From the sequence record OL657228.1: a stretch of 42,931 bases of DNA, one strand, 5' to 3'. Each line of letters begins with the position of its first letter. Within the stretch, counting starts at the first letter, position 1. The stretch is from Escherichia phage 21. The translations under genes and the position numbers were made by a program. Below are positions 2,828 through 40,081 of this stretch, one piece after another. The notes below the pieces were generated by a model. The model did no database searches and had not been told where the DNA came from. It saw only the letters and a list, made by a program, of their open reading frames with translations.

Positions 2828-4416
2828 AACGAACGCCTGTCCTGATTGATGTGAACGGCGTTCCGCTTCGTGAGAGTCTCAGCTACAACGGGGGCGGTGC
2901 AGGATTTGGCGGGCAAATGGCTGAGTGGTTGCCACCGGCGCAGAGTGCCGATGCGGCCCTGCTGCCCGCGTTGCGTCTGGGGAATGCCCGGGCAGATGAT
3001 CTGGTGCGCAATAACGGAATAGCGGCTAATGCGGTGGCTCTGCATAAGGATCACATTGTCGGGCATATGTTTCTGATCAGCTACCGTCCGAACTGGCGCT
3101 GGCTGGGGATGCGGGAGACCGCAGCAAAAAGCTTTGTCGATGAGGTGGAGGCGGCCTGGTCGGAATACGCCGAAGGGATGTTTGGCGAGATCGACGTGGA
3201 AGGAAAACGCACGTTCACGGAATTTATCCGTGAAGGTGTGGGCGTTCATGCGTTTAACGGCGAAATCTTTGTGCAGCCGGTCTGGGATACGGAAACCACG
3301 CAGTTATTCCGTACGCGTTTTAAAGCCGTGAGTCCGAAACGGGTGGACACGCCTGGACACGGTATGGGGAACCGTTTTCTGCGGGCCGGTGTGGAGGTCG
3401 ATCGATATGGCCGTGCCGTCGCGTACCATATCTGTGAGGATGATTTTCCGTTCTCTGGTAGTGGACGATGGGAACGGATCCCGCGTGAACTTCCCACCGG
3501 GCGTCCGGCCATGCTGCATATTTTCGAGCCGGTGGAGGACGGGCAGACCCGTGGGGCTAATCAGTTTTACAGCGTCATGGAACGGCTGAAGATGCTCGAT
3601 TCCCTGCAGGCAACACAGCTTCAGTCGGCCATAGTGAAGGCGATGTATGCAGCGACGATTGAAAGTGAACTTGATACCGAAAAGGCCTTTGAATATATCG
3701 CCGGCGCGCCACAGGAGCAGAAGGATAATCCGCTTATTAATATTCTGGAGAAGTTTTCCAGCTGGTATGACACGAATAACGTGACACTGGGCGGTGTCAA
3801 AATTCCGCACCTTTTCCCTGGTGATGATCTGAAACTACAGACTGCGCAGGATTCAGACAATGGATTTTCTGCGCTTGAACAGGCGCTGCTGCGGTATATC
3901 GCCGCCGGTCTTGGCGTTTCCTACGAACAGTTGTCCCGTGATTACTCGAAGGTCAGTTACTCAAGTGCCCGCGCCTCCGCCAATGAGTCGTGGCGCTATT
4001 TTATGGGGCGGCGAAAATTTATTGCGGCCCGGCTGGCCACGCAGATGTTTTCCTGCTGGCTGGAAGAGGCACTTCTTCGGGGGATTATTCGTCCGCCACG
4101 GGCACGTTTTGATTTTTATCAGGCGCGATCAGCCTGGTCACGGGCAGAGTGGATTGGTGCCGGAAGAATGGCCATTGACGGGCTCAAGGAAGTCCAGGAA
4201 TCAGTGATGCGCATTGAGGCCGGACTGAGCACGTATGAGAAAGAGCTGGCGCTGATGGGCGAGGATTATCAGGACATTTTCCGCCAGCAGGTCAGGGAAT
4301 CTGCTGAGCGGCAAAAAGCCGGACTCTCACGTCCGGTGTGGATAGAGCAGGCGTATCAGCAGCAGATAGCGGAGAGTCGTAGGCCGGAAGAGGAGACAAC
4401 ACCACGTGAGACGTAA
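2824..4416 (+). CDS. B: portal protein (gpB)
   Basis: Start at MKRTPVLID (ORF-track start +30 nt); high similarity to lambda gpB (FEPVEDGQTRGAN.FYSVME, QTAQDSDNGFSALEQALLRYIAAGLGVSYEQLSR). Confidence 0.92.
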   Translation: MKRTPVLIDVNGVPLRESLSYNGGGAGFGGQMAEWLPPAQSADAALLPALRLGNARADDLVRNNGIAANAVALHKDHIVGHMFLISYRPNWRWLGMRETAAKSFVDEVEAAWSEYAEGMFGEIDVEGKRTFTEFIREGVGVHAFNGEIFVQPVWDTETTQLFRTRFKAVSPKRVDTPGHGMGNRFLRAGVEVDRYGRAVAYHICEDDFPFSGSGRWERIPRELPTGRPAMLHIFEPVEDGQTRGANQFYSVMERLKMLDSLQATQLQSAIVKAMYAATIESELDTEKAFEYIAGAPQEQKDNPLINILEKFSSWYDTNNVTLGGVKIPHLFPGDDLKLQTAQDSDNGFSALEQALLRYIAAGLGVSYEQLSRDYSKVSYSSARASANESWRYFMGRRKFIAARLATQMFSCWLEEALLRGIIRPPRARFDFYQARSAWSRAEWIGAGRMAIDGLKEVQESVMRIEAGLSTYEKELALMGEDYQDIFRQQVRESAERQKAGLSRPVWIEQAYQQQIAESRRPEEETTPRET

Positions 4417-6352: not shown

Positions 6353-7381
6353 ATGGGATTGTTTACGACCCGCCAGTTACTCGGTTATACCGAACAAAAA
6401 GTTAAATTTCGTGCGCTGTTTCTGGAGCTGTTTTTCCGCCGTACGGTGAATTTCCATACCGAAGAGGTGATGCTGGACAAAATTACCGGAAAAACGCCGG
6501 TGGCGGCCTATGTCTCCCCGGTTGTTGAAGGAAAAGTGCTGCGTCATCGTGGTGGTGAAACCCGCGTGTTGCGTCCGGGCTACGTCAAGCCGAAACACGA
6601 ATTTAATTACCAGCAGGCGGTTGAGCGCCTTCCTGGTGAAGATCCATCTCAACTGAATGATCCGGCTTACCGCCGTCTGCGTATCATTACCGATAACCTC
6701 AAACAGGAAGAGCACGCGATTGTCCAGGTGGAAGAAATGCAGGCGGTAAATGCTGTGTTGTATGGCAAATACACCATGGAAGGAGACCAGTTCGAGAAAA
6801 TTGAGGTCGATTTTGGCAGGTCGACGAAGAATAACATCACTCAGGGTAGTGGTAAGGAGTGGTCAAAACAGGATCGTGACACGTTCGATCCTACACATGA
6901 TATTGACCTCTACTGCGACCTGGCCAGCGGTCTTGTGAATATTGCCATTATGGACGGTACCGTCTGGCGTCTTCTGAATGGTTTTAAGCTGTTCCGCGAA
7001 AAACTGGATACCCGTCGCGGTTCAAATTCTCAACTCGAAACGGCAGTGAAAGATCTGGGCGCAGTGGTGTCCTTCAAGGGGTATTACGGCGATCTGGCCA
7101 TTGTGGTGGCGAAAACGTCTTATATAGCAGAAGACGGTATCGAAAAACGTTATCTTCCAGATGGCATGCTGGTTCTGGGGAATACTGCTGCAGATGGGAT
7201 CCGTTGTTACGGTGCCATTCAGGATGCTCAGGCGTTGTCCGAAGGTGTGGTGGCCTCTTCCCGTTATCCGAAACACTGGCTGACGGTAGGGGATCCCGCC
7301 CGTGAATTTACCATGACGCAGTCCGCGCCGCTGATGGTGTTGCCGGACCCGGATGAGTTTGTGGTGGTACAGGTGAAATAA
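6353..7381 (+). CDS. E: major capsid protein E
   Basis: 342 aa; strong similarity to lambda gpE (DTRRGSNS.LETAVKDLG, GDPAREFTMTQSAPLMVLPDPDEFVVVQ). Confidence 0.93.
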   Translation: MGLFTTRQLLGYTEQKVKFRALFLELFFRRTVNFHTEEVMLDKITGKTPVAAYVSPVVEGKVLRHRGGETRVLRPGYVKPKHEFNYQQAVERLPGEDPSQLNDPAYRRLRIITDNLKQEEHAIVQVEEMQAVNAVLYGKYTMEGDQFEKIEVDFGRSTKNNITQGSGKEWSKQDRDTFDPTHDIDLYCDLASGLVNIAIMDGTVWRLLNGFKLFREKLDTRRGSNSQLETAVKDLGAVVSFKGYYGDLAIVVAKTSYIAEDGIEKRYLPDGMLVLGNTAADGIRCYGAIQDAQALSEGVVASSRYPKHWLTVGDPAREFTMTQSAPLMVLPDPDEFVVVQVK

Positions 7382-21966: not shown

Positions 21967-22824
21967 CTAATTGGGTGATAACAGATCCTGTGTATGGGAG
22001 TTTCCCTTTTTGCGTGCGTTGATGCTGGTAACGGCAAACGTCATGATGAACAAAACCGCGAATAAGACGACAATCGTCGGAGCTGGTGCGCTGTCGATAA
22101 AAAAGGACAACCAGACACCAGTCATTGACACTATTACCGATATGCCAGTCGCCAGTAGGAGCGCAATATGAAAGCGTTGTGTCAGGAGTACCGCAATGGC
22201 GCCAGGCGCAATGAGCAGAGAAATGGAGAGAATGATACCTACCGCTTTCAGCGTCGCCACAATGGTCAGAGAGACCATGCACAGCAGCCCATAATGCAGC
22301 CATCTCGTATGCAAACCGCTTACCTGCGCCTGTTGATAATCAAAGCTGAACAGCAAAAAATCCCGCCATTTTACGCTAATAACAAGTGTAACCAGCCCGG
22401 CAATAATCATCGTCTGGATTATATCGCCGATGGTTATCCCGAGCATGTCGCCGAAAAGAATATGGTCAAGATGTACGTCTGGTTTGACTGCAATATACAA
22501 GATCAGACCTGCGGCAAACATGCCAGAAAAAACAATCCCCATCACTGTATCTTGCTTGATTCGGCTGTTGTCTTTCAGGTATCCCGTCGCCACCGCGCAG
22601 AATACTCCGGCGACGAATGCCCCTGTAGCCAAAGGTAACCCCAGAATCCAGGCAAGCACGATTCCAGGAAAAACCGCATGACTCATCGCGTCACCCATCA
22701 GTGCCCAACCTTTCAGGACCAGAAAGACCGACAGCAGCGCACAGGGTATGGAAACTACCAGTGAAATCAGCAGTGCGTGACTCATAAAGGTGAACTGCAG
22801 TGGCTCCAGTAATAATGCCATCAT
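21967..22824 (-). CDS. sitD: Mn/Fe ABC transporter permease SitD
   Basis: 285 aa polytopic membrane protein, paralogous to the adjacent SitC and last gene of the four-gene minus-strand operon. Confidence 0.85.
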   Translation of the reverse strand: MMALLLEPLQFTFMSHALLISLVVSIPCALLSVFLVLKGWALMGDAMSHAVFPGIVLAWILGLPLATGAFVAGVFCAVATGYLKDNSRIKQDTVMGIVFSGMFAAGLILYIAVKPDVHLDHILFGDMLGITIGDIIQTMIIAGLVTLVISVKWRDFLLFSFDYQQAQVSGLHTRWLHYGLLCMVSLTIVATLKAVGIILSISLLIAPGAIAVLLTQRFHIALLLATGISVIVSMTGVWLSFFIDSAPAPTIVVLFAVLFIMTFAVTSINARKKGNSHTQDLLSPN

Positions 22825-23678
22825 GAGCGATCCTCCAGCGCCTTATGCGCACGCCGACGATTTGCCAAAAGCCCATGGGTGGGCGCAAAGACAAATGCTA
22901 AAAGAAACAGCAGTGTCTGCGCCACCACGATGATTCCACCTGTCGCGCCGTCCAGAAAGTAACTGACCCACGCGCCGAGGAAACTGGTCACACTGCCAAT
23001 AGTTACAGCAATCATGAGCAGGCGGGGAAAACGATCGGTTAACAACCATGCTGTTGCACCGGGAGTCACCACCAGACAGATCACCAGAAAGGCACCAACC
23101 GTTTGCAGCGCCGCAACGGTCGAAACCGACAGCAGGGTGAAGAAGATGAGTTTTAATCTGCCCGGATGCAATCCAATAGCACGGGCGTGATTCTCGTCGA
23201 AAAAGGTCACCATAAGATCTTTCCATTTGAAAAAAAGCACGATGATCGAGAGAATGCCAATGATAGTGAGTTGCAGGATATCCGCCGGATCGATTGCCAG
23301 AATATTGCCCAGGACGATGGTCTGAATGTTCACAGATGTCGGGTTCAATGACACCATAAACAGCCCCAGGCCAAAAAAGGACGAGAAGATCAGACCGATG
23401 ATGGCATCTTCTTTTAAGCGGGTGCGTTGGTTAAGAAACAGCATGCTGCCCGCAGCCAGTCCGCCGGAAAAGAAGGCTCCCAGAGAAAACGGAAGCCCCA
23501 GCATATATGCCCCCGCAACACCCGGGACAATAGAGTGCGACAACGCATCGCCAATCAGCGACCAGCCTTTTAGCATCAGATAGCATGACAGGAAAGCGCA
23601 GAGACCGCCGACCATCGCCGAGACCCACATCGCATTGAGCATATATTCATAGCTGAAGGGTTCCAGTAGCACGTTCAT
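22821..23678 (-). CDS. sitC: Mn/Fe ABC transporter permease SitC
   Basis: 285 aa polytopic membrane protein with ABC-3 permease character; overlaps sitB and sitD by 4 nt. Confidence 0.85.
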
Positions 23679-24502
23679 CTTTCTTCCCTCTGCACCGCTG
23701 ACGGTCGATGAGCCACAAAAGGGCGTTCATCGTCAGTAATAATGCTTTCTTCCGAGCCGTTAAGTGTGACATGGCGCAGTACGCCGCTAAAAGCCAGCTC
23801 TAGGTTCTCGGCTGTAAAAGTGGTGTCTGTCGGCCCGCTTGCCAGGACGGTGCCTTTGACCATGACCGTATAATCGCAAAATGTCGTGACGGATCCGAGA
23901 TTGTGTGTTGAGACAAGCATCGTTTTGCCTTCCGCGCGTAACTCCCTCAACAGGCTGATGATTTTGGCTTCGGTTTTCACATCAACGCCAGTAAAAGGTT
24001 CATCCAGCAGGATCACATCACCCTGCTGTGCAATCGCTCTCGCCAGAAAGACGCGTTTCTTTTGTCCACCGGAAAGCTCGCCGATTTGTCGATGGCGAAA
24101 ATTCACCATATCGACACGTTCCAGCGCATCGGTGACAATTTGACGATCCCTCTTTTTGGCGATACGCAACATACCCATATGCCCATAGCGGCCCATCATC
24201 ACCACATCTTCCACCAGTACAGGAAATGACCAGTCAACATCTTCTGACTGAGGGACGTAGGCAACCAGGTTTTTCTGTAACGCCTGTCGCGTGGGAATAC
24301 CCAGAACAGATATCTTTCCGCTGGTCAGACGCACAAATCCCATAATCGCTTTAAACAACGTCGATTTTCCGGAACCGTTTACCCCAACCAGAGCGGCAAT
24401 AGATCCACTTGGTACTGTGAAGGATGCATCGCGCAGTGCTGTGTGCCCGTTACGCCAGGTGACAGTAACATCATTAACGACAATGCCTGCAGATTGCATC
24501 AT
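23675..24502 (-). CDS. sitB: Mn/Fe ABC transporter ATP-binding protein SitB
   Basis: Walker [13 protein letters not shown] signature LSGGQKKRV, Walker B ILLDEP. Confidence 0.9.
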
Positions 24503-25416
24503 TATTTCTCCCTTTTCCCAGCTTTAATTCCCTGTACCAGCGTACTGGTAGTAACCTTAAGAAGGTCGATATACGTCGGTACCGGGCCGTTTTCTGTGCT
24601 CAGGGAATCGACATAGAGCACACCGCCGTAGTGTGCGCCGGTTTCACGCGCAACCTGACGCGCTGGTTTATCGGAAATCGTACTCTCGCTAAAGACTGCC
24701 GGGATATGATTTTTCTTAACTATATCAACAACCTTACGTACCTGCTGCGGTGTTCCTTGTTGATCGGCATTAATCGGCCACAGATAAAGCTCTTTTAGCC
24801 CCAAATCGCGTGCGAGATAAGAAAAAGCCCCTTCACTGGTGACCATCCATCGCTGATTCTCAGGGAGTTCCGTAATCTGCTTACGCAGGGGGGCAAGGGT
24901 TTGGGTAATCTTGGCTTTATAAGTATCGGCATTGCGTTGGTAGGTTTGTGCATTTGCCGGATCGTATTTTATCAACGCATCACGAATATTATCGACGTAA
25001 ATCAGAGCATTATCTGGCGACATCCATGCATGGGGGTTAGGTTTGCCCTCATAGGGTCCTTCGGTGATCCCTACAGGCGTCACACCCGAAGAGACAATTA
25101 CTTCTGGAACCCCATTGAGATGCTGGTAAAAGCGTTGGAACCACAATTCCAGATTCATACCATTGGCGAGAATCAGTTGTGCCCCCTGCGCACGTTTAAT
25201 ATCGCCAGGGGTAGGCTGATACTCATGAATTTCTGCACCAGGCCTGGTTATGGATGAGACTTCTGCAGCATCTCCCGCCACGTTTTTGGCCATATCCGCG
25301 ATGATGGTAAATGTTGTAATGACCTTGAATTTTTCAGTTGCACTTGCCTGAAATGCGATCGAGCAGGTGAGTGCGAGGCCCCCCAAGAGCATGGTTACTT
25401 TTTTTATTGAGTGCAT
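24502..25416 (-). CDS. sitA: periplasmic Mn/Fe-binding protein SitA
   Basis: 304 aa with N-terminal signal peptide ([26 protein letters not shown]); first gene of the operon; resembles cluster A-I metal-binding proteins. Confidence 0.88.
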
Positions 25417-27610: not shown

Positions 27611-28753
27611 CTATGCTGTTTTGATATCTACGATAATCCAGTCTTTACCACGATCATCATTGTATCGGTCGGTCATTTTTCTGGATTTATGGCCTAACAA
27701 CTTTTGCGTATCCAGACCCTGTTCCCGATATAATCGTTCTGACAGAGATCGCTGTTCATGAAATGTGGGCGCAGTTCCTTGCTCCCATTTTATGCCACAT
27801 TTTTCCTTGGCCTTTTTAAAAGCCGTTGTCAGAGTATTTGCAGAAACCTGGTCTCCTCTGTTTGCTTGAGAGGTAGTGTGACGGTAATGGACCAGATATT
27901 TACTAACAACAGCATCCCTGCACTGAGATATAACTTCACGAAGGGTAATATTCAGAGCATCGCATTTCAGGTTAAGCGGAATAGCAAGTTTTGAACCGGT
28001 TTTTTCCTGAGTAATGTGCAACATGTCGTCCCATATATCAGAGAATTTCAAATTGCAGATATCGCCTAAACGTTGTCCAGTAACAAGAGCAAGTAGCATG
28101 CCGCATTTTAAATAGGGCTGCCGTCTGCTTACGCTTTCAAATATTGCCTGCCATTCGAGCAGTGACAATCTTTGGCGGTTTACTCGATTTCGCGGTTGTT
28201 TTGTTGCCTGCGCTGGGTTAAATCCTGGCGGAACATGTCCTGCGTGTTGTGCTTCTTTGAAGACGTCGATCAACACCATTCTCACGACTTGCGCCATCCT
28301 GTTATGACCTTCAGCCTTTACAGCATCAATTATTTCGGCAATATCAAGTGCGGTAATATCCTTGAGGTGTTGCATTCCACAATGCTCACGGAAAAGACGA
28401 ATGGGTTTGCCTTTTTGCCGATAGGAGTTGGGTCTTAGTTCATTATGTTGCAGCCTGTCCTCCTGGATAGAAATATATTTATCAAGCCATTCTGTCACCG
28501 TAATGTCTGAGCGCCTGCCTTTCATTCTTTCCAGACGCTCATTGACGCTTAATATTTGTCTGGTACGTTGTTCAGCAATAATGGTATTTGCTTCAGTAGC
28601 AACTTGTTTTGCTTCATTCTCATCAGTTCCTAAGCTATGAAAACGACCGGATAGTGGATGTTTGTATTGCCAATATACCTTTCCGGTTCGCTTATCTAAT
28701 TTGCAATATAAATTGGGTATAGAGATTTTGTGAGATCGGGGTCTAGCAGCCAT
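27611..28753 (-). CDS. int: tyrosine integrase (lambda-type, icd-targeting)
   Basis: 380 aa; N-terminal arm-binding-like domain, C-terminal catalytic region with ...HEQRSLSERLY...LLGHKSRKMTDRY (R..H..R..Y); adjacent to attP and xis. Confidence 0.92.
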   Translation of the reverse strand: MAARPRSHKISIPNLYCKLDKRTGKVYWQYKHPLSGRFHSLGTDENEAKQVATEANTIIAEQRTRQILSVNERLERMKGRRSDITVTEWLDKYISIQEDRLQHNELRPNSYRQKGKPIRLFREHCGMQHLKDITALDIAEIIDAVKAEGHNRMAQVVRMVLIDVFKEAQHAGHVPPGFNPAQATKQPRNRVNRQRLSLLEWQAIFESVSRRQPYLKCGMLLALVTGQRLGDICNLKFSDIWDDMLHITQEKTGSKLAIPLNLKCDALNITLREVISQCRDAVVSKYLVHYRHTTSQANRGDQVSANTLTTAFKKAKEKCGIKWEQGTAPTFHEQRSLSERLYREQGLDTQKLLGHKSRKMTDRYNDDRGKDWIIVDIKTA

Positions 28754-32090: not shown

Positions 32091-32507
32091 TTATACCTCT
32101 GAATCAATATCAACCTGATGGTGAGCAATGGTTTCAACCATGTACCGGATGTGTTCTGCCATGCGCTCCTGAAACTCAACATCGTCATCAAATGCACGGG
32201 TAATGGCTTTTTTGCTGGCCCCGCAGCGTTGTAAATGATCGATGCAGAGCGATTCAAACAAATGCTGGGGCAGGCCTTTTTCCATGTCGTCTGCCAGTTC
32301 TGCCTCTTTCTCTTCACGGGCGAGCTGCTGGTAGTGACGCGCCCAGCTCTGAGCCTCAAGACGATCCTGAATGTAATAAGCGTTCATGGCTGAACTCCTG
32401 AAATAGCTGTGAAAATATCGCCCGCGAAATGCCAGGCTGATTAGGAAAACAGGAAAGGGGGTTAGTGAATGCTTTTGCTTGATCTCAGTTTCAGCATTAA
32501 TATCCAT
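32091..32507 (-). CDS. gam: RecBCD inhibitor Gam
   Basis: 138 aa, near-identical to lambda Gam ([24 protein letters not shown]...). Confidence 0.95.
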
Positions 32508-32605: not shown

Positions 32606-32738
32606 TCTTTGGGACTCCTGGCTGATTAAGTATGTCGATAAGGCGTTTCCATCCGTCACGTAATTTACGGGTGATTCGTTCAAGTAAAGATTCGGAAGGG
32701 CAGCCAGCAACAGGCCACCCTGCAATGGCATATTGCAT
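32574..32738 (-). CDS. cIII: CIII (FtsH/HflB inhibitor)
   Basis: 54-aa frame [54 protein letters not shown], identical to lambda CIII as recalled. Confidence 0.92.
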   Translation of the reverse strand: MQYAIAGWPVAGCPSESLLERITRKLRDGWKRLIDILNQPGVPKNGSNTYGYPD

Positions 32739-32810
32739 GGTGTGCTCCTTATTTATACATAACGAAAAACGCCTCGAGTGAAGCGTTATTGGTATGCGGT
32801 AAAACCGCAC

Positions 32811-34254: not shown

Positions 34255-34905
34255 TTAAGGAAGGTTTGCTAGCTTGGCATCAACGACAACGCCAATGATT
34301 TTACAGTTCCCATTGATTTCAATCATTGGGTATTGTGGATTGAGTGGTTTCAGGAATTTTCTACCGGCATCAATAACTAACTTTTTGAATGTCGCCTCGT
34401 TTTCTCCTTCAAGTTTGGCGACTACCAGCTTTCCATTACGTGGTTCGACTTCTGGGTCGACGAGAATAATCATCCCCTCAGGAATACTCAGTCCTGCCGG
34501 GGCAGTCATTGAATCGCCTTTAACGTCGAGCCAAAAAGAGTCTTCAGAACAATCTACCGTTGTGTCGTACCAGTTATCTATTGCACGCCTATGATATGGC
34601 TCTACAGCTTCCATCCAACATCCTGCGCTTACCCAACTAATTAGAGGATACGAACCTCTTGGATCATGCCTGCTGTGATAGGCAATGTTTGAAAGACTAT
34701 CCTCTCCTTTCAACAGGTAATCAGGGGAGCACTGCAAAGCCTTGGCTAAGGCCAATAGGTTTTCGCCATTGGGCTCAGTTTCAGATCGCTCCCATTGGGA
34801 AATAGCAACATTAGACACGCCAACCATCTTGCCAAGGGCAGCCTGCCTAATCTTGAGTTCTTTTCTGCGAGCGCGAATACGCTCACCCATCAGTTGTGTA
34901 TTCAT
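34255..34905 (-). CDS. cI: CI-type prophage repressor (HTH plus S24 autopeptidase domain)
   Basis: 216 aa; N-terminal HTH (IRQAALGKMVGVSNVAISQWE), C-terminal LexA-like domain with GDSM serine and downstream lysine; divergent from cro. Confidence 0.9.
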   Translation of the reverse strand: MNTQLMGERIRARRKELKIRQAALGKMVGVSNVAISQWERSETEPNGENLLALAKALQCSPDYLLKGEDSLSNIAYHSRHDPRGSYPLISWVSAGCWMEAVEPYHRRAIDNWYDTTVDCSEDSFWLDVKGDSMTAPAGLSIPEGMIILVDPEVEPRNGKLVVAKLEGENEATFKKLVIDAGRKFLKPLNPQYPMIEINGNCKIIGVVVDAKLANLP

Positions 34906-34985
34906 AGTTAAGACATCTTAAATAAACTTGACTTAAGATTCCTTTGGTGGATAATTTAAGTGTTCTTTAATTTCGGAGCGAGTCT
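34906..34985. promoter_or_regulatory. OR: OR operators with pR (and divergent pRM)
   Basis: Rightward -35 TTGACT and -10 GATAAT (about 34928..34955); palindrome TTAAGACATCTTAA and related half-sites; SD GGAG before cro. Confidence 0.7.
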
Positions 34986-35171
34986 ATGTACAAAAAAGAT
35001 GTTATTGACCACTTCGGAACCCAGCGTGCTGTTGCTAAAGCACTAGGCATTAGCGATGCAGCAGTCTCTCAGTGGAAAGAAGTTATCCCAGAGAAAGACG
35101 CCTATCGATTGGAAATCGTTACAGCTGGCGCCCTGAAGTATCAAGAAAGTGCTTACCGCCAAGCGGCATAA
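34986..35171 (+). CDS. cro: Cro repressor
   Basis: 61 aa with HTH (GTQRAVAKALGISDAAVSQW), divergent from cI across the operator region. Confidence 0.9.
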   Translation: MYKKDVIDHFGTQRAVAKALGISDAAVSQWKEVIPEKDAYRLEIVTAGALKYQESAYRQAA

Positions 35172-35195
35172 GCAAATTGCTCTTTAACAGTTCTG

Positions 35196-35218
35196 GCCTT
35201 TCACCTCTAACCGGGTGA
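35196..35218 (+). promoter_or_regulatory. nutR: nutR boxB hairpin (phage-21 type)
   Basis: UUCACC-UCUAACCG-GGUGAG hairpin between cro and cII, consistent with the phi21 boxB as I recall it (approximate coordinates). Confidence 0.65.
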
Positions 35219-35286
35219 GCAAACATCAGCGGCAAATCCATTGGGTGTGCCGCTATAACTCAATATCAATATAGGTAAATTAACAA

Positions 35287-35586
35287 ATGGCACAAGCAAG
35301 CTACAGCAAGCCAACACAGCGAGAAATTGATCGCGCTGAAACTGATTTACTCATCAACCTGTCAACGCTTACCCAGCGCGGTCTGGCAAAGATGATTGGC
35401 TGTCATGAATCGAAGATAAGCAGAACGGACTGGAGATTTATTGCTTCGGTCTTGTGTGCTTTCGGAATGGCATCAGACATCAGTCCGATTAGCAGGGCTT
35501 TTAAGTATGCGCTTGATGGACTCACAAAGAAAAAACGCCCGGTGTGCAAGACCGAGCGTTCTGAACAAATCCAGATGGAGTTCTGA
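35287..35586 (+). CDS. cII: CII transcriptional activator
   Basis: 99 aa; C-terminus KKKRPVCKTERSEQIQMEF parallels lambda CII; HTH in the centre. Confidence 0.85.
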   Translation: MAQASYSKPTQREIDRAETDLLINLSTLTQRGLAKMIGCHESKISRTDWRFIASVLCAFGMASDISPISRAFKYALDGLTKKKRPVCKTERSEQIQMEF

Positions 35587-35608
35587 GGTCATTACTGGAT
35601 CTATCAAC
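35530..35608 (-). ncRNA. oop: OOP antisense RNA
   Basis: Minus-strand sequence GUUGAUAGAUCCAGUAAUGACCUCAGAACUCCAUCUGGAUUUGUUCAGAACGCUCGG...CCGGGCGUUUUUU matches lambda oop RNA as recalled; antisense to the cII 3' end, ending in a hairpin plus U-run (approximate coordinates). Confidence 0.75.
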
Positions 35609-35618
35609 AGGAGTCATT

Positions 35619-36518
35619 ATGACAAATACAGCAAAAATACTCAACTTCGGCAGAGGTAACTTTGCCGGACAGGAGCGTAATGTGGCAGATCTCGATGATG
35701 GTTACGCCAGACTATCAAATATGCTGCTTGAGGCTTATTCGGGCGCAGATCTGACCAAGCGACAGTTTAAAGTGCTGCTTGCCATTCTGCGTAAAACCTA
35801 TGGGTGGAATAAACCAATGGACAGAATCACCGATTCTCAACTTAGCGAGATTACAAAGTTACCTGTCAAACGGTGCAATGAAGCCAAGTTAGAACTCGTC
35901 AGAATGAATATTATCAAGCAGCAAGGCGGCATGTTTGGACCAAATAAAAACATCTCAGAATGGTGTATCCCTCAAAACGAGGGAAAATCCCCTAAAACGA
36001 GGGATAAAACATCCCTCAAATTGGGGGATTGCTATCCCTCAAAACAGGGGGACACAAAAGACACTATTACAAAAGAAAAAAGAAAAGATTATTCGTCCGA
36101 GAATTCTGGCGAATCCTCTGACCAGCCAGAAAACGATCTTTCTGTGGTTAAACCGGATGCTGCAATTCAGAGCGGCAGCAAGTGGGGAACAGCAGAAGAC
36201 CTGACCGCCGCAGAGTGGATGTTTGACATGGTGAAGACCATCGCGCCATCAGCCAGAAAACCGAATTTTGCTGGGTGGGCTAACGATATCCGCCTGATGC
36301 GTGAACGTGACGGACGTAACCACCGCGATATGTGTGTGCTTTTCCGCTGGGCCTGCCAGGACAACTTCTGGTCCGGTAACGTGCTGAGTCCGGCCAAACT
36401 CCGCGACAAGTGGACCCAGCTCGAAATCAACCGTAACAAGCAACAGGCAGGCGTGACAGCCAGCAAACCAAAACTCGACCTGACAAACACTGACTGGATT
36501 TACGGGGTGGATTTATGA
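35619..36518 (+). CDS. O: replication initiator O
   Basis: 299 aa, essentially identical to lambda O as recalled (MTNTAKILNFGRGNFAGQERNVADLDDGYARLSNMLLEAY...). Confidence 0.96.
   Translation: MTNTAKILNFGRGNFAGQERNVADLDDGYARLSNMLLEAYSGADLTKRQFKVLLAILRKTYGWNKPMDRITDSQLSEITKLPVKRCNEAKLELVRMNIIKQQGGMFGPNKNISEWCIPQNEGKSPKTRDKTSLKLGDCYPSKQGDTKDTITKEKRKDYSSENSGESSDQPENDLSVVKPDAAIQSGSKWGTAEDLTAAEWMFDMVKTIAPSARKPNFAGWANDIRLMRERDGRNHRDMCVLFRWACQDNFWSGNVLSPAKLRDKWTQLEINRNKQQAGVTASKPKLDLTNTDWIYGVDL
35965..36110 (+). repeat. ori: ori-lambda: four O-binding iterons plus adjacent AT-rich region inside the O gene
   Basis: Four tandem 18-20 bp iterons of the form TCCCTCAAAACGAGGGA (atccctcaaaacgaggga / aatcccctaaaacgaggga / atccctcaaattggggga / tccctcaaaacaggggga) followed by an A-rich tract (approximate coordinates). 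Confidence 0.85.
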
Positions 36519-37216
36519 AAAACATCGCCGCACAGATGGTTAACTTTGACCGTGAGCAGATGCGTCGGATCGCCAACAACATGCCGGAACAGTACGACGA
36601 AAAGCCGCAGGTACAACAGGTAGCGCAGATCATCAATGGTGTGTTCAGCCAGTTACTGGCAACTTTCCCGGCGAGTCTGGCTAACCGGGACCAGAACGAA
36701 CTGAACGAAATCCGCCGCCAGTGGGTGCTGGCTTTCCGGGAAAACGGGATCACCACAATGGAACAGGTTAACGCAGGAATGCGCGTAGCCCGTCGGCAGA
36801 ATCGACCATTTCTGCCATCACCCGGGCAGTTTGTTGCATGGTGCCGGGAAGAAGCATCCGTTATCGCCGGACTGCCAAACGTCAGCGAGCTGGTTGATAT
36901 GGTTTACGAGTATTGCCGGAAGCGAGGCCTGTATCCGGATGCGGAGTCTTATCCGTGGAAATCAAACGCGCACTACTGGCTGGTTACCAACCTGTATCAG
37001 AACATGCGGGCCAATGCGCTTACTGATGCGGAATTACGCCGTAAGGCCGCAGATGAGCTTGTCCATATGACTGCGAGAATTAACCGTGGTGAGGCGATCC
37101 CTGAACCAGTAAAACAACTTCCTGTCATGGGCGGTAGACCTCTAAATCGTGCACAGGCTCTGGCGAAGATCGCAGAAATCAAAGCTAAGTTCGGACTGAA
37201 AGGAGCAAGTGTATGA
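36515..37216 (+). CDS. P: replication protein P (DnaB helicase loader)
   Basis: 233 aa, near-identical to lambda P; overlaps O stop. Confidence 0.95.
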   Translation: MKNIAAQMVNFDREQMRRIANNMPEQYDEKPQVQQVAQIINGVFSQLLATFPASLANRDQNELNEIRRQWVLAFRENGITTMEQVNAGMRVARRQNRPFLPSPGQFVAWCREEASVIAGLPNVSELVDMVYEYCRKRGLYPDAESYPWKSNAHYWLVTNLYQNMRANALTDAELRRKAADELVHMTARINRGEAIPEPVKQLPVMGGRPLNRAQALAKIAEIKAKFGLKGASV

Positions 37217-37503
37217 CGGGCAAAGAGGCAATTATTCATTACCTGGGGACGCATAATAGCTTCTGTGCGCCGGACGTTGCCGCGCTAACAGGCGCAACAG
37301 TAACCAGCATAAATCAGGCCGCGGCTAAAATGGCACGGGCAGGTCTTCTGGTTATCGAAGGTAAGGTCTGGCGAACGGTGTATTACCGGTTTGCTACCAG
37401 GGAAGAACGGGAAGGAAAGATGAGCACGAACCTGATTTTTAAGGAGTGTCGCCAGAGTGCCGCGATGAAACGGGTATTGGCGGTATATGGAGTTAAAAGA
37501 TGA
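37213..37503 (+). CDS. ren: Ren
   Basis: 96 aa, MTGKEAIIHYLGTHNSFCAPDVAALTGATVTSINQAAAKMARAG..., matches lambda Ren. Confidence 0.9.
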   Translation: MTGKEAIIHYLGTHNSFCAPDVAALTGATVTSINQAAAKMARAGLLVIEGKVWRTVYYRFATREEREGKMSTNLIFKECRQSAAMKRVLAVYGVKR

Positions 37504-37526
37504 CCATCTACATCACTGAGCTAATA

Positions 37527-37556
37527 ACAGGCCTGCTGGTAATCGCAGGCCTTTTT
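37527..37556 (+). terminator. tR2-like rho-independent terminator
   Basis: AGGCCTGC-tggtaatc-GCAGGCCT hairpin followed by TTTTTATTT between ren and ninB (approximate coordinates). Confidence 0.65.
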
Positions 37557-37576
37557 ATTTGGGGGAGAGGGAAGTC

Positions 37577-38017
37577 ATGAAAAAACTAACCTTTGAAATT
37601 CGATCTCCAGCACATCAGCAAAACGCTATTCACGCGGTACAGCAAATTCTTCCAGACCCAACCAAACCAATCGTAGTAACCATTCAGGAACGCAACCGCA
37701 GCTTAGACCAGAATCGAAAGCTTTGGGCTTGCCTTGGTGACGTCTCTCGTCAGGTTGAATGGCATGGTCGCTGGCTGGATGCAGAAAGCTGGAAGTGTGT
37801 GTTTACCGCAGCATTAAAGCAGCAGGATGTTGTTCCTAACCTTGCCGGGAATGGCTTTGTGGTAATAGGCCAGTCAACCAGCAGGATGCGTGTAAGCGAA
37901 TTTGCGGAGCTATTAGAGCTTATACAGGCATTCGGTACAGAGCGTGGCGTTAAGTGGTCGGACGAAGCGCGACTGGCTCTCGAATGGAAAGCGCGATGGG
38001 GAGACAGGGCGGCATGA
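37577..38017 (+). CDS. ninB: NinB recombination protein
   Basis: Start [21 protein letters not shown] with SD GGGAGAGGGAAG upstream; matches lambda NinB. Confidence 0.9.
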
Positions 38018-38196
38018 GACGACAGCGACGAAGTATCACCGACATCATCTGCGAAAACTGCAAATACCTTCCAACGAAACGCTCCAGAAATAAACGCAAG
38101 CCAATCCCAAAAGAATCTGACGTAAAAACCTTCAACTACACGGCTCACCTGTGGGATATCCGGTGGCTAAGACATCGTGCGAGGAATACAAGGTGA
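38014..38196 (+). CDS. small Nin-region zinc-finger-like protein (NinD/NinE-like)
   Basis: 60 aa, [24 protein letters not shown]...; start overlaps the ninB stop (ATGA); which lambda nin ORF it corresponds to is uncertain. Confidence 0.6.
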
Positions 38197-38363
38197 TTGA
38201 CCCAAATCGAAGTTACGAACAAGAAAGCGTCGAGCGGGCTTTAACGTGCGCTAATTGCGGTCAGAAGCTGCATGTGCTGGAAGTTCACGTGTGTGAGTAC
38301 TGCTGTGCAGAGCTGATGAGCGATTCGAATAGCTCGATGCACGAGGAAGAAGATGATGGCTAA
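38193..38363 (+). CDS. ninF: NinF-like small protein
   Basis: GTG start ([37 protein letters not shown]...) with SD GAGGA 8 nt upstream; Cys-rich; resembles lambda NinF from memory. Confidence 0.6.
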
Positions 38364-38967
38364 ACCAGCGCGAAGACGATGTAAAAACGATGAATGTCGG
38401 GAATGGTTTCACCCTGCATTCGCTAATCAGTGGTGGTGCTCTCCAGAGTGTGGAACCAAGATAGCACTCGAACGACGAAGTAAAGAACGCGAAAAAGCGG
38501 AAAAAGCAGCAGAGAAGAAACGACGACGAGAGGAGCAGAAACAGAAAGATAAACTTAAGATTAGAAAACTCGCCTTAAAGCCCCGCAGTTACTGGATTAA
38601 ACAAGCCCAACAAGCCGTAAACGCCTTCATCAGAGAAAGAGACCGCGACTTACCATGTATCTCTTGCGGAACGCTCACGTCTGCTCAGTGGGATGCCGGA
38701 CATTACCGGACAACTGCTGCGGCACCTCAACTCCGATTTGATGAACGCAATATTCACAAGCAATGCGTGGTGTGCAACCAGCACAAAAGCGGAAATCTCG
38801 TTCCGTATCGCGTCGAACTGATTAGCCGCATCGGGCAGGAAGCAGTAGACGAAATCGAATCAAACCATAACCGCCATCGCTGGACTGTCGAAGAGTGCAG
38901 GGCCATCAAGGCGGAGTATCAGCAGAAACTCAAAGACCTGCGAAACAGCAGAAGTGAGGCCGCATGA
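38353..38967 (+). CDS. ninG: NinG (Rap) recombination endonuclease
   Basis: 204 aa, [34 protein letters not shown]..., matches lambda NinG. Confidence 0.92.
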
Positions 38968-39010
38968 CGTTCTCAGTAAAAACCATTCCAGATCACAAGG
39001 GAGAAGGCGC

Positions 39011-39499
39011 ATGGGCATAAGAGAACTAAACCTCACCAAAGAACAGCACGAGTGGCTGAATGGCTGGCTTGAACTGTGGGGCGCATGGGTTTATTCAGGT
39101 CGTCTGGAAAAGCGCATGAGCAGCGTAATAGCTAAGTTCATGGAGAGCGTAGAGCCGGGAAGAGTTATGACAAGGCCAATGTGTAATGATGATGATGGAA
39201 TGTTGATTTCTCAGGTCGTCGATTCCGTCATGTACATTGACAAGAAAGCCTTTGGCATCCTCCTCAGCTACTACGCCCACGGCTCTTCCAAGCACGCCAT
39301 TGCATCTTACTATCATCGCGTCGCAAGACCTCGCAAGATGTTATGCCGGGGCGGCGGGCGCATTCAAAAACCATCGCTCGCAACCTGTCGACGGGAAGTT
39401 GACGAAATCCTCAATGCCTCGTTGTTTATGATTTACCCGGTTCTGGATAGTGCGTTTAAAAACCGGAAACGTGTAGAGAAAATTAAACATGTAGCATAG
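39011..39499 (+). CDS. Q: late-gene antiterminator Q (non-lambda, phage-21-like type)
   Basis: 162-aa frame from MGIRELNLTKEQHEWL with SD GGAGAAGG upstream; sits between the nin genes and the pR'/tR' region; no similarity to lambda Q, so identity rests on position and size. Confidence 0.6.
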   Translation: MGIRELNLTKEQHEWLNGWLELWGAWVYSGRLEKRMSSVIAKFMESVEPGRVMTRPMCNDDDGMLISQVVDSVMYIDKKAFGILLSYYAHGSSKHAIASYYHRVARPRKMLCRGGGRIQKPSLATCRREVDEILNASLFMIYPVLDSAFKNRKRVEKIKHVA

Positions 39500-39544
39500 A
39501 ACGTGTTGACATCATTGAGCAAATGAGCAACACTATTCGCATAA

Positions 39545-39590
39545 GCTGCCGTTAGTGACTCTTAAGTTGCAACGGTGGCTTTTTTTATTT
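39545..39590 (+). terminator. tR'-like terminator downstream of Q (with pR' candidate about 39505..39540)
   Basis: GCCGTT...AACGGTGGC hairpin followed by TTTTTTTATTT; TTGACA -35-like hexamer just after the Q stop (approximate coordinates). Confidence 0.6.
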
Positions 39591-39665
39591 GGGTCAGTCG
39601 TATAAAGGTCATTACGGAAGGCTGTTAACCTTCTTATCGTGGTTCGAGTCCACGCTGTCCCGCCA
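39591..39665 (+). tRNA. tRNA-like gene, anticodon GUU (Asn) by hand folding, atypical D-arm
   Basis: 75 nt by hand fold: acceptor GGGTCAG/CTGTCCC (one mismatch), anticodon stem GGAAG/CCTTC with loop CUGUUAA, T-arm CGTGG-TTCGAGT-CCACG, 3' CCA encoded (approximate coordinates). Confidence 0.55.
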
Positions 39666-39670
39666 AACAT

Positions 39671-39746
39671 GCTGGTTTAGCTCCAATGGTAGAGCAGTCG
39701 CCTTGTAAGCGAATGGGTAGCGGTTCAAGTCCGTTAACCAGCACCA
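39671..39746 (+). tRNA. tRNA-like gene, anticodon UGU (Thr) by hand folding
   Basis: About 76 nt: acceptor GCTGGTT/AACCAGC, D-arm TAGCTCCAATGGTAGAGCA, anticodon loop CUUGUAA, T-loop TTCAAGT, 3' ACCA (approximate coordinates; anticodon assignment tentative). Confidence 0.55.
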
Positions 39747-39865
39747 TAACTGAGCCGTAGCCACTGGCTATCATGAATTCATCAGTGATAGTTACGCTGC
39801 GGCCTTCTTTTTTTCCCCTTCCCAATATAAGAACTACGCAATCCGTTACTGGCGGAGGCGTTGCT

Positions 39866-40081
39866 ATGAAATCAATGGACAAAATCTCAACTGGCATTGC
39901 CTACGGAACATCTGCTGGTAGTGCGGGATACTGGTTTTTGCAGTGGTTGGATCAGGTCAGTCCGTCACAGTGGGCTGCGATTGGAGTGCTTGGAAGCCTT
40001 GTGTTGGGTTTTCTCACTTATCTGACAAATCTGTATTTCAAAATCAGAGAAGACAGACGAAAGGCTGCGAGAGGTGAATAA
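39866..40081 (+). CDS. S: pinholin S21 (dual-start holin/antiholin)
   Basis: 71-aa frame [71 protein letters not shown]; dual-start MKSM motif; matches phage-21 S21 as I recall it. Confidence 0.9.

What the first reader, a model, noticed from the sequence alone, without database searches (positions are those of the whole stretch)
39591..39746. Two tRNA-like genes immediately after the tR' terminator, one with a non-canonical D-arm
Hand folding gives two adjacent cloverleaf candidates between Q and the lysis genes (anticodons GUU and UGU by my fold). Both have good T-arms and the first encodes CCA. The first has a mismatched acceptor pair and a weak D-stem, so it may be a degenerate or specialised tRNA, or another structured RNA. 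The position matches where some lambdoid phages carry tRNA genes. A minus-strand ORF in the track overlaps this region and is probably spurious.
Basis: seen in the sequence. Interest (0 to 1): 0.5.

Follow-up and report, generated by a model that had tools for sequence, protein, structure and literature searches.

The report
Phage 21 tRNA-Asn and tRNA-Thr genes
These are two real, already known phage 21 tRNA genes in the late-operon leader; the threonine one has been shown by others to replace a host tRNA destroyed by the P2 Old defence nuclease, and the role of the asparagine one is untested.

Summary
ARAGORN and Rfam both call tRNA-Asn(GUU) at 39591-39665 and tRNA-Thr(UGU) at 39671-39746. 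They start one base after the tR' terminator and lie upstream of the S21 holin.

The window matches phage 21 at 99.7% over the deposited 4.9 kb. The same pair is annotated in Sf6 ("similar to phage 21"), BTP1 and SfI, and in 361 of 5426 complete E. coli genomes.

The Thr gene is the published tRNA-Thr21. It resists cleavage by the P2 OLD Toprim tRNase and rescues OLD toxicity (PMC12445682). The identical HK446 allele restores plating of OLD-sensitive phages (bioRxiv 2026.07.10.737580).

The "odd" tRNA-Asn is not degenerate. Twelve of 21 stem pairs covary, while U4·U69 and U13·U22 persist. It lacks both the OLD (CNG) and PARIS AriB (UAAUC, U16) cleavage determinants present in host asnT. Asn codons are not enriched in the phage.

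I infer that it is a second nuclease-resistant spare tRNA; nobody has tested this. The minus-strand ORFs have no support.

The only open question is what the Asn tRNA does.

The parts
39011..39499 (+). Q21 late antiterminator gene (upstream context)
   Evidence: 162-aa ORF; Pfam Phage_antitermQ, 87.4 bits. Corresponds to the Q CDS of phage 21 record AJ237660.
39505..39530 (+). pR' late promoter, the only promoter upstream of the tRNAs
   Evidence: Coordinates transferred from the 'pQ promoter' feature of AJ237660 (window offset). TTGACA at 39506-39511 is visible. The consensus scan found no other +-strand promoter-like site between here and the holin.
39541..39590 (+). Short pR' leader RNA with the tR' intrinsic terminator (hairpin 39543-39581, then a U-run)
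   Evidence: Fold dG -20.2 kcal/mol, z -6.14, 0 of 200 shuffles as good. Annotated 'aRNA' in AJ237660 and 't R'' in Sf6.
39591..39665 (+). tRNA-Asn(GUU), CCA encoded, G73, U4·U69 and U13·U22 mismatches
   Evidence: ARAGORN; Rfam 55.3 bits. Identical in Sf6, ST64T, JLK-2012 and HK446. 12 of 21 stem pairs covary in the lineage. Lacks the CNG and UAAUC nuclease motifs of host asnT.
39666..39670 (+). 5-nt spacer AACAT between the two tRNAs
   Evidence: It holds the only difference from HK446 across the 165-nt cassette core (AATAT).
39671..39746 (+). tRNA-Thr(UGU), the published tRNA-Thr21; CCA encoded, A73, G1-C72 and C2-G71, G27·A43 mismatch
   Evidence: ARAGORN; Rfam 61.5 bits. U28/A42 and the shortened anticodon stem match the paper's description of tRNA-Thr21. 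Identical to the HK446 Thr.
39754..39814 (+). Long hairpin (39754-39803) followed by a U-rich run: terminator-like element closing the tRNA cassette
   Evidence: Fold dG -25.5 kcal/mol, z -5.14, 0 of 200 shuffles as good. The hairpin is conserved in Sf6 and HK446, where the U-run is replaced. Terminator-like hairpins also follow most unrelated arrays.
39866..40081 (+). S21 holin, first lysis gene (downstream context)
   Evidence: Pfam 'Bacteriophage P21 holin S', 122 bits.

Best explanation
[quoted passage not shown] They form a small mobile cassette in the leader of the late operon, between the tR' terminator and the lysis genes.

Expression (inferred). There is no room for a separate promoter. 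They would be transcribed from pR' only when Q-modified RNA polymerase reads through tR', and then cut out of the late transcript by the host tRNA-processing enzymes.

tRNA-Thr (shown by others). It is a nuclease-resistant stand-in for the host's only ACA-reading tRNA, thrU. P2 OLD, and also PARIS AriB, destroy thrU when a lambdoid phage infects. The phage copy carries C28U/G42A and a G27·A43 mismatch, resists cutting and keeps ACA decoding going.

tRNA-Asn (inferred). It plays the same role for host tRNA-Asn(GUU), a slower substrate of both Toprim nucleases. It has lost every cleavage determinant mapped so far.

Codon supply for the ACA-rich phage genome is a compatible secondary benefit for the Thr gene only.
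For: Gene calls.

Identity with phage 21: the 165-nt core is 100% identical, and the window is 99.71% identical over all 4890 nt of AJ237660.

Prior annotation: Sf6, BTP1 and SfI carry the same pair, and PGAP annotates it in 361 of 5426 E. coli genomes.

Literature on the Thr gene:
- PMC12445682: phage 21 tRNA-Thr21 'also protected against P2-OLD'. It is not cut by purified OLD without ATP, and Site 1 is nearly fully resistant. Resistance comes from CNG alteration plus a shorter anticodon stem.
- bioRxiv 10.64898/2026.07.10.737580: the HK446 Thr(UGU) gives strong counter-defence. That sequence is identical to the window's.
- PMC12409363: AriB cuts host Lys(UUU), Thr(UGU) and Asn(GUU) at 40|41 in U36AAUC. 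U39, position 41 and U16 are determinants.

My motif table:
- Host thrU has C28UG/C40AG and UAAUC; the window Thr has U28CG/C40GA and UAAGC.
- Host asnT has C28GG/C40CG and UAAUC; the window Asn has A28AG/C40UU and UAACC.
- Neither phage tRNA has U16.

Other support:
- The phage tRNAs are only 62% (Asn) and 70% (Thr) identical to the host genes.
- The window encodes Gam, the OLD trigger.
- Asn codons are not enriched (37.3 vs 35.6 per 1000, p=0.49), whereas ACA is (22% vs 10% of Thr codons, p=1e-10).
- The Asn(GUU)+Thr(UGU) pairing recurs in a second, about 66% identical lineage, in P1 and in phage-plasmids.
- Some arrays add Gly(UCC), another OLD target.
Against: - The Asn tRNA has not been tested in any paper I could read.
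- The phage has no tRNA-Lys(UUU), the prime AriB target, so the pair cannot neutralise the B185 PARIS system on its own (PMC12409363).
- Thr(UGU) alone did not rescue lambda from OLD.
- tRNA-Asn is not among the five most depleted OLD targets in the preprint.
- The Klebsiella-phage Asn variant has regained both CNG motifs through its 28:42 change, and the group-2 and P1 Thr genes keep CNG.
- A non-U39 is not rare among tRNAs, so motif loss could be partly chance.
- The Asn anticodon stem is not shortened (5 of 5 pairs).
- Expression, processing and charging in phage 21 infection were not examined here.
Confidence: 0.8

Rival explanations
1. Classical codon supplementation. The tRNAs exist only to boost decoding of codons that the phage uses more than its host does, with no link to defence.
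For: ACA is 22.2% of Thr codons in the window against 9.9% in a 50-kb K-12 sample (Fisher p=1e-10). The SfI paper reports the same ACA bias (PMC3636060). The phage L paper proposes pool supplementation for Asn (PMC8022706).
Against: There is no Asn enrichment and no AAC preference (p=0.49 and 0.12). The major-capsid-sized ORF 6353-7381 has 1 ACA among 22 Thr codons and 2 AAC against 9 AAT. Host thrU overexpression does not protect against OLD, whereas the phage Thr does (PMC12445682). The SfI authors themselves found the Asn gene unexplained.
Confidence: 0.3
2. The first feature is a decaying pseudo-tRNA or a different structured RNA, for example merely an RNase P processing signal that trims the tR' hairpin off the late mRNA, and does not take part in translation.
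For: - It has two non-standard pairs (U4·U69, U13·U22), and its single-sequence fold is no better than shuffles (z -1.7).
- It is always the first gene and abuts a terminator in most lineages, as a processing signal would.
- The neighbouring slot does decay in some phages: the ST64T tRNA-like element and the JLK-2012 chimera.
Against: - Rfam scores it 55.3 bits, well above the gathering score of 29.
- 12 of 21 stem pairs show compensatory changes across 10 distinct sequences.
- The anticodon loop CUGUUAA is identical to the host's. G73 is invariant, being G in 99 of 100 viral copies and in all 10 lineage sequences. Together with G34, U35 and U36 this gives all known E. coli AsnRS identity elements.
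- G18G19, the T loop and the encoded CCA are intact.
- The sequence is identical across phages of Escherichia, Shigella and Salmonella.
Confidence: 0.08
3. The tRNAs compensate for a host tRNA gene disrupted by prophage integration. The 2026 preprint suggests this for the HK446 Thr gene.
For: Proposed in bioRxiv 10.64898/2026.07.10.737580. Many temperate phages do integrate into tRNA genes; SfI and P22 use thrW.
Against: - The genes lie in the late leader, 11 kb from the integrase (27611-28753).
- They are only 62-70% identical to the host genes, so they cannot rebuild a split host gene.
- They lie behind tR', so they would be poorly expressed in a lysogen.
- The same cassette occurs in phages with different integration modules.
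Confidence: 0.03
4. One of the overlapping minus-strand ORFs (39634-39897, 87 aa; 39612-39764, 50 aa; 39533-39670, 45 aa) is the real product.
For: The ORFs exist. A few deposited phage records annotate a hypothetical protein here (H8 and H21).
Against: No Pfam family reaches its cut-off. Conservation follows the tRNA structure, with compensatory pair changes rather than a reading frame. The region is interrupted by an 87-nt tRNA-Phe in the Klebsiella phage and replaced in ST64T and JLK-2012.
Confidence: 0.02

Closest known systems
tRNA-Thr21 of phage 21 and the identical HK446 Thr(UGU), OLD-resistant 'rescue' tRNAs (Govande et al. 2025, PMC12445682; bioRxiv 10.64898/2026.07.10.737580)
   Same: Window 39671-39746 is this molecule. 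It has the same anticodon, U28/A42 and a shortened anticodon stem, and is sequence-identical to the HK446 allele.
   Different: Nothing in sequence. The papers tested the tRNA from plasmids, not in its native late-leader context. They did not consider the adjacent tRNA-Asn.
The tRNA-Asn/tRNA-Thr pair annotated in Shigella phage Sf6, Salmonella phage BTP1 and Shigella phage SfI
   Same: 98-100% identical DNA in the same position between the Q gene and the holin. The Sf6 record notes 'similar to phage 21'.
   Different: The capsid, tail and integration modules differ (podovirus, myovirus or siphovirus). In Sf6 and HK446 the U-run after the downstream hairpin is replaced by other sequence.
Phage T5 tRNA-Lys(UUU), Thr(UGU) and Asn(GUU), which together neutralise PARIS (Burman 2024, PMC11464382; Belukhina 2025, PMC12409363)
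   Same: Same anticodons for two of the three. Both sets carry substitutions at the AriB site: position 39 is not U in any of the T5 and window tRNAs.
   Different: The sequences are unrelated. T5 carries about 25 tRNAs, including the essential resistant Lys(UUU), which phage 21 lacks. T5 Asn has a normal 4:69 pair.
Stx-phage ileZ-argN-argO and other tRNA arrays between Q/pR' and the late genes of lambdoid phages
   Same: Same genomic niche and presumably the same Q-dependent transcription (from my own knowledge of phage 933W; not examined here).
   Different: Different isoacceptors (rare Ile and Arg codons), usually explained by codon usage.
Phage P1 trnA (Asn) and trnT (Thr)
   Same: Adjacent Asn(GUU)-Thr(UGU) pair in a temperate coliphage. 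The Thr has G39.
   Different: It lies in the C1-controlled ban operon, not a late leader. It is about 77-80% identical or less. P1 Asn keeps UAAUC and P1 Thr keeps both CNG motifs.

Membership tests
Canonical elongator tRNA (Rfam RF00005) | Cloverleaf with a 7-bp acceptor stem, D arm with G18G19, 5-bp anticodon stem with a 7-nt loop (U33, purine 37), and T arm with a GTTCRA loop | tested here: met
   Both match the full model (1-71/71) at 55.3 and 61.5 bits against a gathering score of 29, and ARAGORN calls both. Asn has two non-standard pairs and Thr has one.
Canonical elongator tRNA (Rfam RF00005) | Stem pairs maintained by compensatory change in relatives | tested here: met
   In the Asn lineage, 12 of 21 pairs show double changes among 10 distinct sequences. 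The Klebsiella Thr copy changes 3:70, 5:68 and 6:67 on both sides.
tRNA-Asn accepted by E. coli AsnRS | G34, U35, U36 and discriminator G73 (identity set from the literature, recalled from my own knowledge) | tested here: met
   The loop is CUGUUAA and G73 is followed by an encoded CCA. G73 is present in all 10 lineage sequences. Actual charging cannot be tested here.
tRNA-Thr accepted by E. coli ThrRS | G1-C72, C2-G71, G35 and U36 (identity set recalled from my own knowledge) | tested here: met
   The acceptor stem is GCUGGUU/AACCAGC and the anticodon is UGU. Function in ACA decoding is implied by the rescue experiments in PMC12445682.
Nuclease-resistant phage 'rescue' tRNA against Toprim tRNases (P2 OLD, PARIS AriB) | Same anticodon as a host tRNA that the nuclease cleaves | tested here: met
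   Thr(UGU) is the prime OLD target and a prime AriB target. Asn(GUU) is a secondary substrate of both.
Nuclease-resistant phage 'rescue' tRNA against Toprim tRNases (P2 OLD, PARIS AriB) | Cleavage determinants altered: paired CNG at 28-30 and 40-42 (OLD); U36AAUC with U39, position 41 and U16 (AriB) | tested here: met
   The window Thr has UCG/CGA and UAAGC. The window Asn has AAG/CUU and UAACC. Neither D loop has U16. Host thrU and asnT carry all the motifs.
Nuclease-resistant phage 'rescue' tRNA against Toprim tRNases (P2 OLD, PARIS AriB) | Shortened anticodon stem, required together with CNG alteration for OLD resistance in tRNA-Thr6 and tRNA-Thr21 | tested here: inconclusive
   Met for Thr (G27·A43, 4 of 5 pairs). 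Not met for Asn (5 of 5 pairs).
Nuclease-resistant phage 'rescue' tRNA against Toprim tRNases (P2 OLD, PARIS AriB) | Experimental resistance to cleavage and rescue of toxicity or plating | not testable with these tools
   For Thr this is shown in the literature. For the phage 21 Asn I found no test in any paper read.
Lambdoid late-leader tRNA cassette | Located between the Q/pR'/tR' region and the holin, on the late strand, with no promoter of its own | tested here: met
   The same layout occurs in Sf6, HK446, ST64T, JLK-2012, the Klebsiella phage and the group-2 loci.

The most novel reading that the evidence does not exclude
The always-first tRNA-Asn is a dedicated counter-defence molecule: a nuclease-proof spare for host tRNA-Asn(GUU). 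Together with tRNA-Thr21 it would form a minimal two-tRNA kit against OLD/PARIS-type Toprim tRNases. Its conserved oddities (U4·U69, U13·U22, a D loop without U16) would be part of how it escapes nucleases that also read the D loop and distal parts of the tRNA. This would explain a gene whose purpose the SfI authors called unclear, and which a 2026 preprint overlooked in HK446.
Probability: 0.4. Interest if true: 0.45.

Novelty: already known. Interest (0 to 1): 0.22.

Why it matters
As a sequence feature it is ordinary. The genes are annotated in close relatives, and the Thr gene has been characterised experimentally.

It is still a tidy example of a temperate phage carrying both the trigger of a defence system (Gam, which activates P2 OLD) and a partial antidote (a resistant tRNA-Thr) placed so that it is made with the late genes.

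The one loose end is the tRNA-Asn. It is more conserved than its partner, is always first in the array, is not explained by codon usage, and has lost every mapped cleavage determinant of two Toprim tRNases. It has never been tested, it is unannotated in some records (HK446, ST64T), and it was missed in a recent study.

Tried and rejected
1. Pseudo-tRNA or other RNA for the first feature. Rejected on the Rfam score, covariation and intact identity elements.

2. Minus-strand ORFs. No family match, and the frame is not conserved.

3. Recent capture from the host. Rejected: only 62% and 70% identity to asnT and thrU, and host genes do not appear among the BLAST hits.

4. Integration-site compensation. 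Rejected on position and divergence.

5. Own promoter. None was found, and there is no space between tR' and the tRNA.

6. Genome-wide scan for repaired 4:69 variants. The pattern was too unspecific (mostly tRNA-Asp and tRNA-Arg of unrelated phyla) and was cut at 120 rows. It only showed that U69 is normally paired with A or G (95 of 104) and that all four tRNA-Asn hits keep U4.

7. My simple downstream-terminator script missed the window's own hairpin, because four bases separate the stem from the T-run. The fold is the evidence for it.

8. RemAIN targets could not be checked, because PMC11840918 is not held.

9. BTP1 transcriptome papers gave nothing on expression of these tRNAs.

10. HepS (Gifsy-1) also cuts Thr(UGU) and is triggered by lambda-type J proteins. 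I considered it as a further target system but have no sequence determinants to test against.

Full report
**Observation**

ARAGORN finds exactly two tRNA genes in the 42.9-kb window. They are tRNA-Asn(GTT) at 39591-39665 and tRNA-Thr(TGT) at 39671-39746, both on the + strand. Rfam's tRNA model matches both over its full length, at 55.3 and 61.5 bits against a gathering score of 29.

Some details need correcting or adding:
- The acceptor mismatch in Asn is U4·U69.
- The Asn D stem has three standard pairs plus U13·U22.
- Both genes encode CCA, not only the first.
- The Thr gene has a G27·A43 mismatch at the top of its anticodon stem.

**Context**

The window is phage 21 or a near-identical phage. 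The deposited 4890-bp phage 21 fragment AJ237660 aligns end to end at 99.71% to 34887-39780, and the tRNA core is 100% identical.

The order of features on the + strand is:
- Q21 at 39011-39499 (Pfam Phage_antitermQ).
- The pR' promoter at 39505-39530, transferred from AJ237660.
- A short leader ending in the tR' hairpin at 39543-39581 plus a U-run (dG -20.2 kcal/mol, z -6.1).
- tRNA-Asn, starting one base after that leader ends.
- A 5-nt spacer.
- tRNA-Thr.
- A second strong hairpin at 39754-39803 followed by a U-rich run (dG -25.5 kcal/mol, z -5.1).
- The S21 holin at 39866-40081 and the endolysin.

No promoter-like site lies between pR' and the holin. I therefore infer that the tRNAs are made only from transcripts that read through tR', which is the Q-dependent late transcript, and are then excised. 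This step was not tested.

**Prior knowledge of the genes**

PGAP annotates it in 361 of 5426 complete E. coli genomes. The SfI paper lists tRNAs at this position in Sf6, ST64T, PS3 and p21 (PMC3636060). The phage L paper discusses them and notes that their mode of expression is unknown (PMC8022706).

**Are they functional tRNAs?**

The two are only 62% (Asn) and 70% (Thr) identical to host asnT and thrU, so they are not recent captures from the host.

I collected viral tRNA-Asn copies with a pattern that left the acceptor and D arms free. I then parsed ten distinct sequences of this lineage by tRNA position.
- 12 of 21 stem pairs show changes on both sides.
- The Klebsiella-phage copy alone has 6:67 A-U to G-C, 7:66 G-C to A-U and 28:42 A-U to C-G.
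- U4·U69 persists in 8 of the 10 sequences. It is U·G or G·U only in the two most distant.
- U13·U22 persists throughout the phage 21-type group.
- Across 100 distinct viral tRNA-Asn sequences, only 9 have U·U at 4:69.
- In bacterial tRNAs with the same 3' strand, U69 is paired with A or G in 95 of 104 cases.

The mismatches are therefore retained features of a working tRNA and not signs of decay. The anticodon loop equals the host's, and G73, G18G19, the T loop and CCA are all intact.

**Function of the Thr gene (literature)**

Govande et al. 2025 (PMC12445682) showed how P2 OLD, the classic exclusion system against lambda, kills. It cuts host tRNA-Thr(UGU) on both strands of the anticodon stem, after the C of paired CNG motifs at 28-30 and 40-42. 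Phage Thr(UGU) tRNAs rescue the cells.

[quoted passage not shown] (tRNA-Thr21) ... also protected against P2-OLD". Purified OLD cannot cut it without ATP, and Site 1 is almost fully resistant. The authors attribute resistance to C28U/G42A plus a shorter anticodon stem. Those features are exactly what the window shows: stem GUCGC/GCGAA with G27·A43.

A July 2026 preprint (10.64898/2026.07.10.737580) found that the HK446 Thr(UGU) restores plating of OLD-sensitive HK97, HK542 and Bas34 to near wild-type levels. It did not rescue lambda when supplied alone. HK446's Asn and Thr genes are identical to the window's.

The window also encodes Gam, the OLD trigger, at 32091-32507 on the minus strand (Pfam 211 bits).

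**Function of the Asn gene (inference)**

Codon supply does not explain it. Asn codons run at 37.3 per 1000 in the phage against 35.6 in a K-12 sample (p=0.49), and AAC is not preferred. By contrast, ACA is 22% against 10% of Thr codons (p=1e-10). The SfI authors reached the same conclusion.

Belukhina et al. 2025 (PMC12409363) showed that PARIS AriB cleaves host Lys(UUU), Thr(UGU) and, more weakly but with biological effect, Asn(GUU). The cut falls between positions 40 and 41 in U36AAUC. U39 and position 41 are determinants, along with U16 in the D loop. Resistant T5 versions of all three tRNAs are needed to neutralise PARIS. OLD also cuts host Asn(GUU), more slowly than thrU.

My numbering reproduces the published motifs: host thrU reads UAAUC|A, host asnT UAAUC|C, and T5 Lys UAAACC. 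Against that background:
- Host asnT has both CNG motifs (CGG, CCG), UAAUC and U16.
- The window's Asn has AAG and CUU, UAACC, and a D loop AAAGGUCA without U16.

The Asn(GUU)+Thr(UGU) pairing also recurs:
- In a second lineage about 66% identical, as Asn-Thr and Asn-Gly(UCC)-Thr arrays behind a different Q gene. Asn-Arg(UCU) arrays also occur in that lineage.
- In P1.
- In phage-plasmids.

Every one of six phage Thr(UGU) lineages has G39. Gly(UCC), present in two arrays, is another OLD target.

I therefore think the Asn gene is most likely a second nuclease-resistant spare.

Points against this reading:
- It has never been tested.
- The phage has no Lys(UUU).
- Asn is not among the top OLD targets in the preprint.
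- The Asn anticodon stem is not shortened.
- The Klebsiella variant regains CNG.
- A non-U39 is common among tRNAs in general.

**Cassette structure**

In HK446 the identical cassette sits behind a lambda-type Q and pR'. Identity with the window begins inside the terminator's T-run and ends just after the 39754-39803 hairpin.

In most lineages tRNA-Asn lies within a few bases of a strong terminator hairpin, although the terminator sequences themselves are unrelated. A terminator-like hairpin also follows most arrays.

The slot after Asn is variable:
- Thr in phage 21.
- A shortened tRNA-like element in ST64T and L.
- A phage/host chimeric Thr followed by Gly in JLK-2012.
- Phe-Thr-Arg in a Klebsiella phage.

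**Rivals**

- Pure codon supplementation fits the ACA bias but not Asn, and host thrU does not rescue OLD toxicity.
- A pseudo-tRNA or pure processing signal is contradicted by the covariation and the intact identity elements.
- Compensation for an integration-disrupted host gene, suggested for HK446 in the preprint, does not fit the position or the divergence.
- The minus-strand ORFs have no support.

**Verdict**

The finding is real and correctly interpreted, but it is already known. The genes are annotated in relatives, and the Thr gene is an experimentally characterised anti-OLD tRNA. The only open point is the untested role of the conserved, mismatch-bearing tRNA-Asn.

Noticed in passing
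window 39754-39814: A long hairpin with a U-rich tail directly after tRNA-Thr (dG -25.5 kcal/mol, z -5.1). It travels with the tRNA cassette into Sf6 and HK446, where the U-run is replaced. Together with tR' it brackets the tRNAs between two terminator-like elements, and unrelated arrays show the same bracketing.
   Followed up: partly
L252 (HK446, JQ086372.1) 606-761: HK446 carries both tRNAs, identical to the window's, but its GenBank record annotates neither. A 2026 preprint describes HK446 as encoding a single Thr(UGU) tRNA, so the adjacent tRNA-Asn was overlooked.
   Followed up: yes
L003 (ST64T, AY052766.1) 786-857: In ST64T and phage L the second slot holds a shortened tRNA-like sequence with an aberrant anticodon arm (Rfam 42 bits; ARAGORN makes no call). 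The phage L paper reads it as anticodon UAA, 'Leu'. It shares its acceptor and T arms with the phage 21 Thr gene, so it looks like a remodelled or decaying derivative.
   Followed up: partly
L004 (JLK-2012, JQ347801.1) 786-861: The annotated tRNA-Thr is a chimera. Its 5' half is identical to the phage 21 Thr and its 3' half resembles host thrU. It regains the AriB motif UAAUC and one CNG motif and has a poorly paired anticodon stem. ARAGORN does not call it. A tRNA-Gly(UCC) and tciA/tciB follow, as in P1.
   Followed up: partly
L009 5218-5452, also L061, L038, L041, L079, L046: A second viral tRNA-Asn group, about 66% identical, has exactly the same acceptor stem GGGUCAG/CUGUCCC with U4·U69 but different D, anticodon and T stems. 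It also comes first in its array and directly follows a terminator, here behind a different Q-like gene.
   Followed up: partly
L251 (P1, NC_005856.1) 3349-3502; L130 1473-1625: P1 and a 110-kb E. coli phage-plasmid also carry adjacent Asn(GUU)-Thr(UGU) genes, 2 nt apart. In P1 they lie in the C1-controlled ban operon.
   Followed up: partly
window 32091-32507 (-): A lambda-type Gam gene (Pfam 211 bits), followed by Bet-like (RecT family) and Exo-like (YqaJ family) genes. Gam is the known trigger of P2 OLD, so the phage carries both a trigger and a partial antidote.
   Followed up: partly
window 21967-25416 (-): Four consecutive minus-strand ORFs (285, 285, 275 and 304 aa) between the tail-fibre and integrase regions. 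The closest relatives annotate a SitA-type iron/manganese ABC transporter here, which would be apparent cargo. I did not verify this in the window.
   Followed up: no
window 32693-32751 (-): Rfam match to the lambda cIII thermoregulator element (RF01804, 88.5 bits).
   Followed up: no
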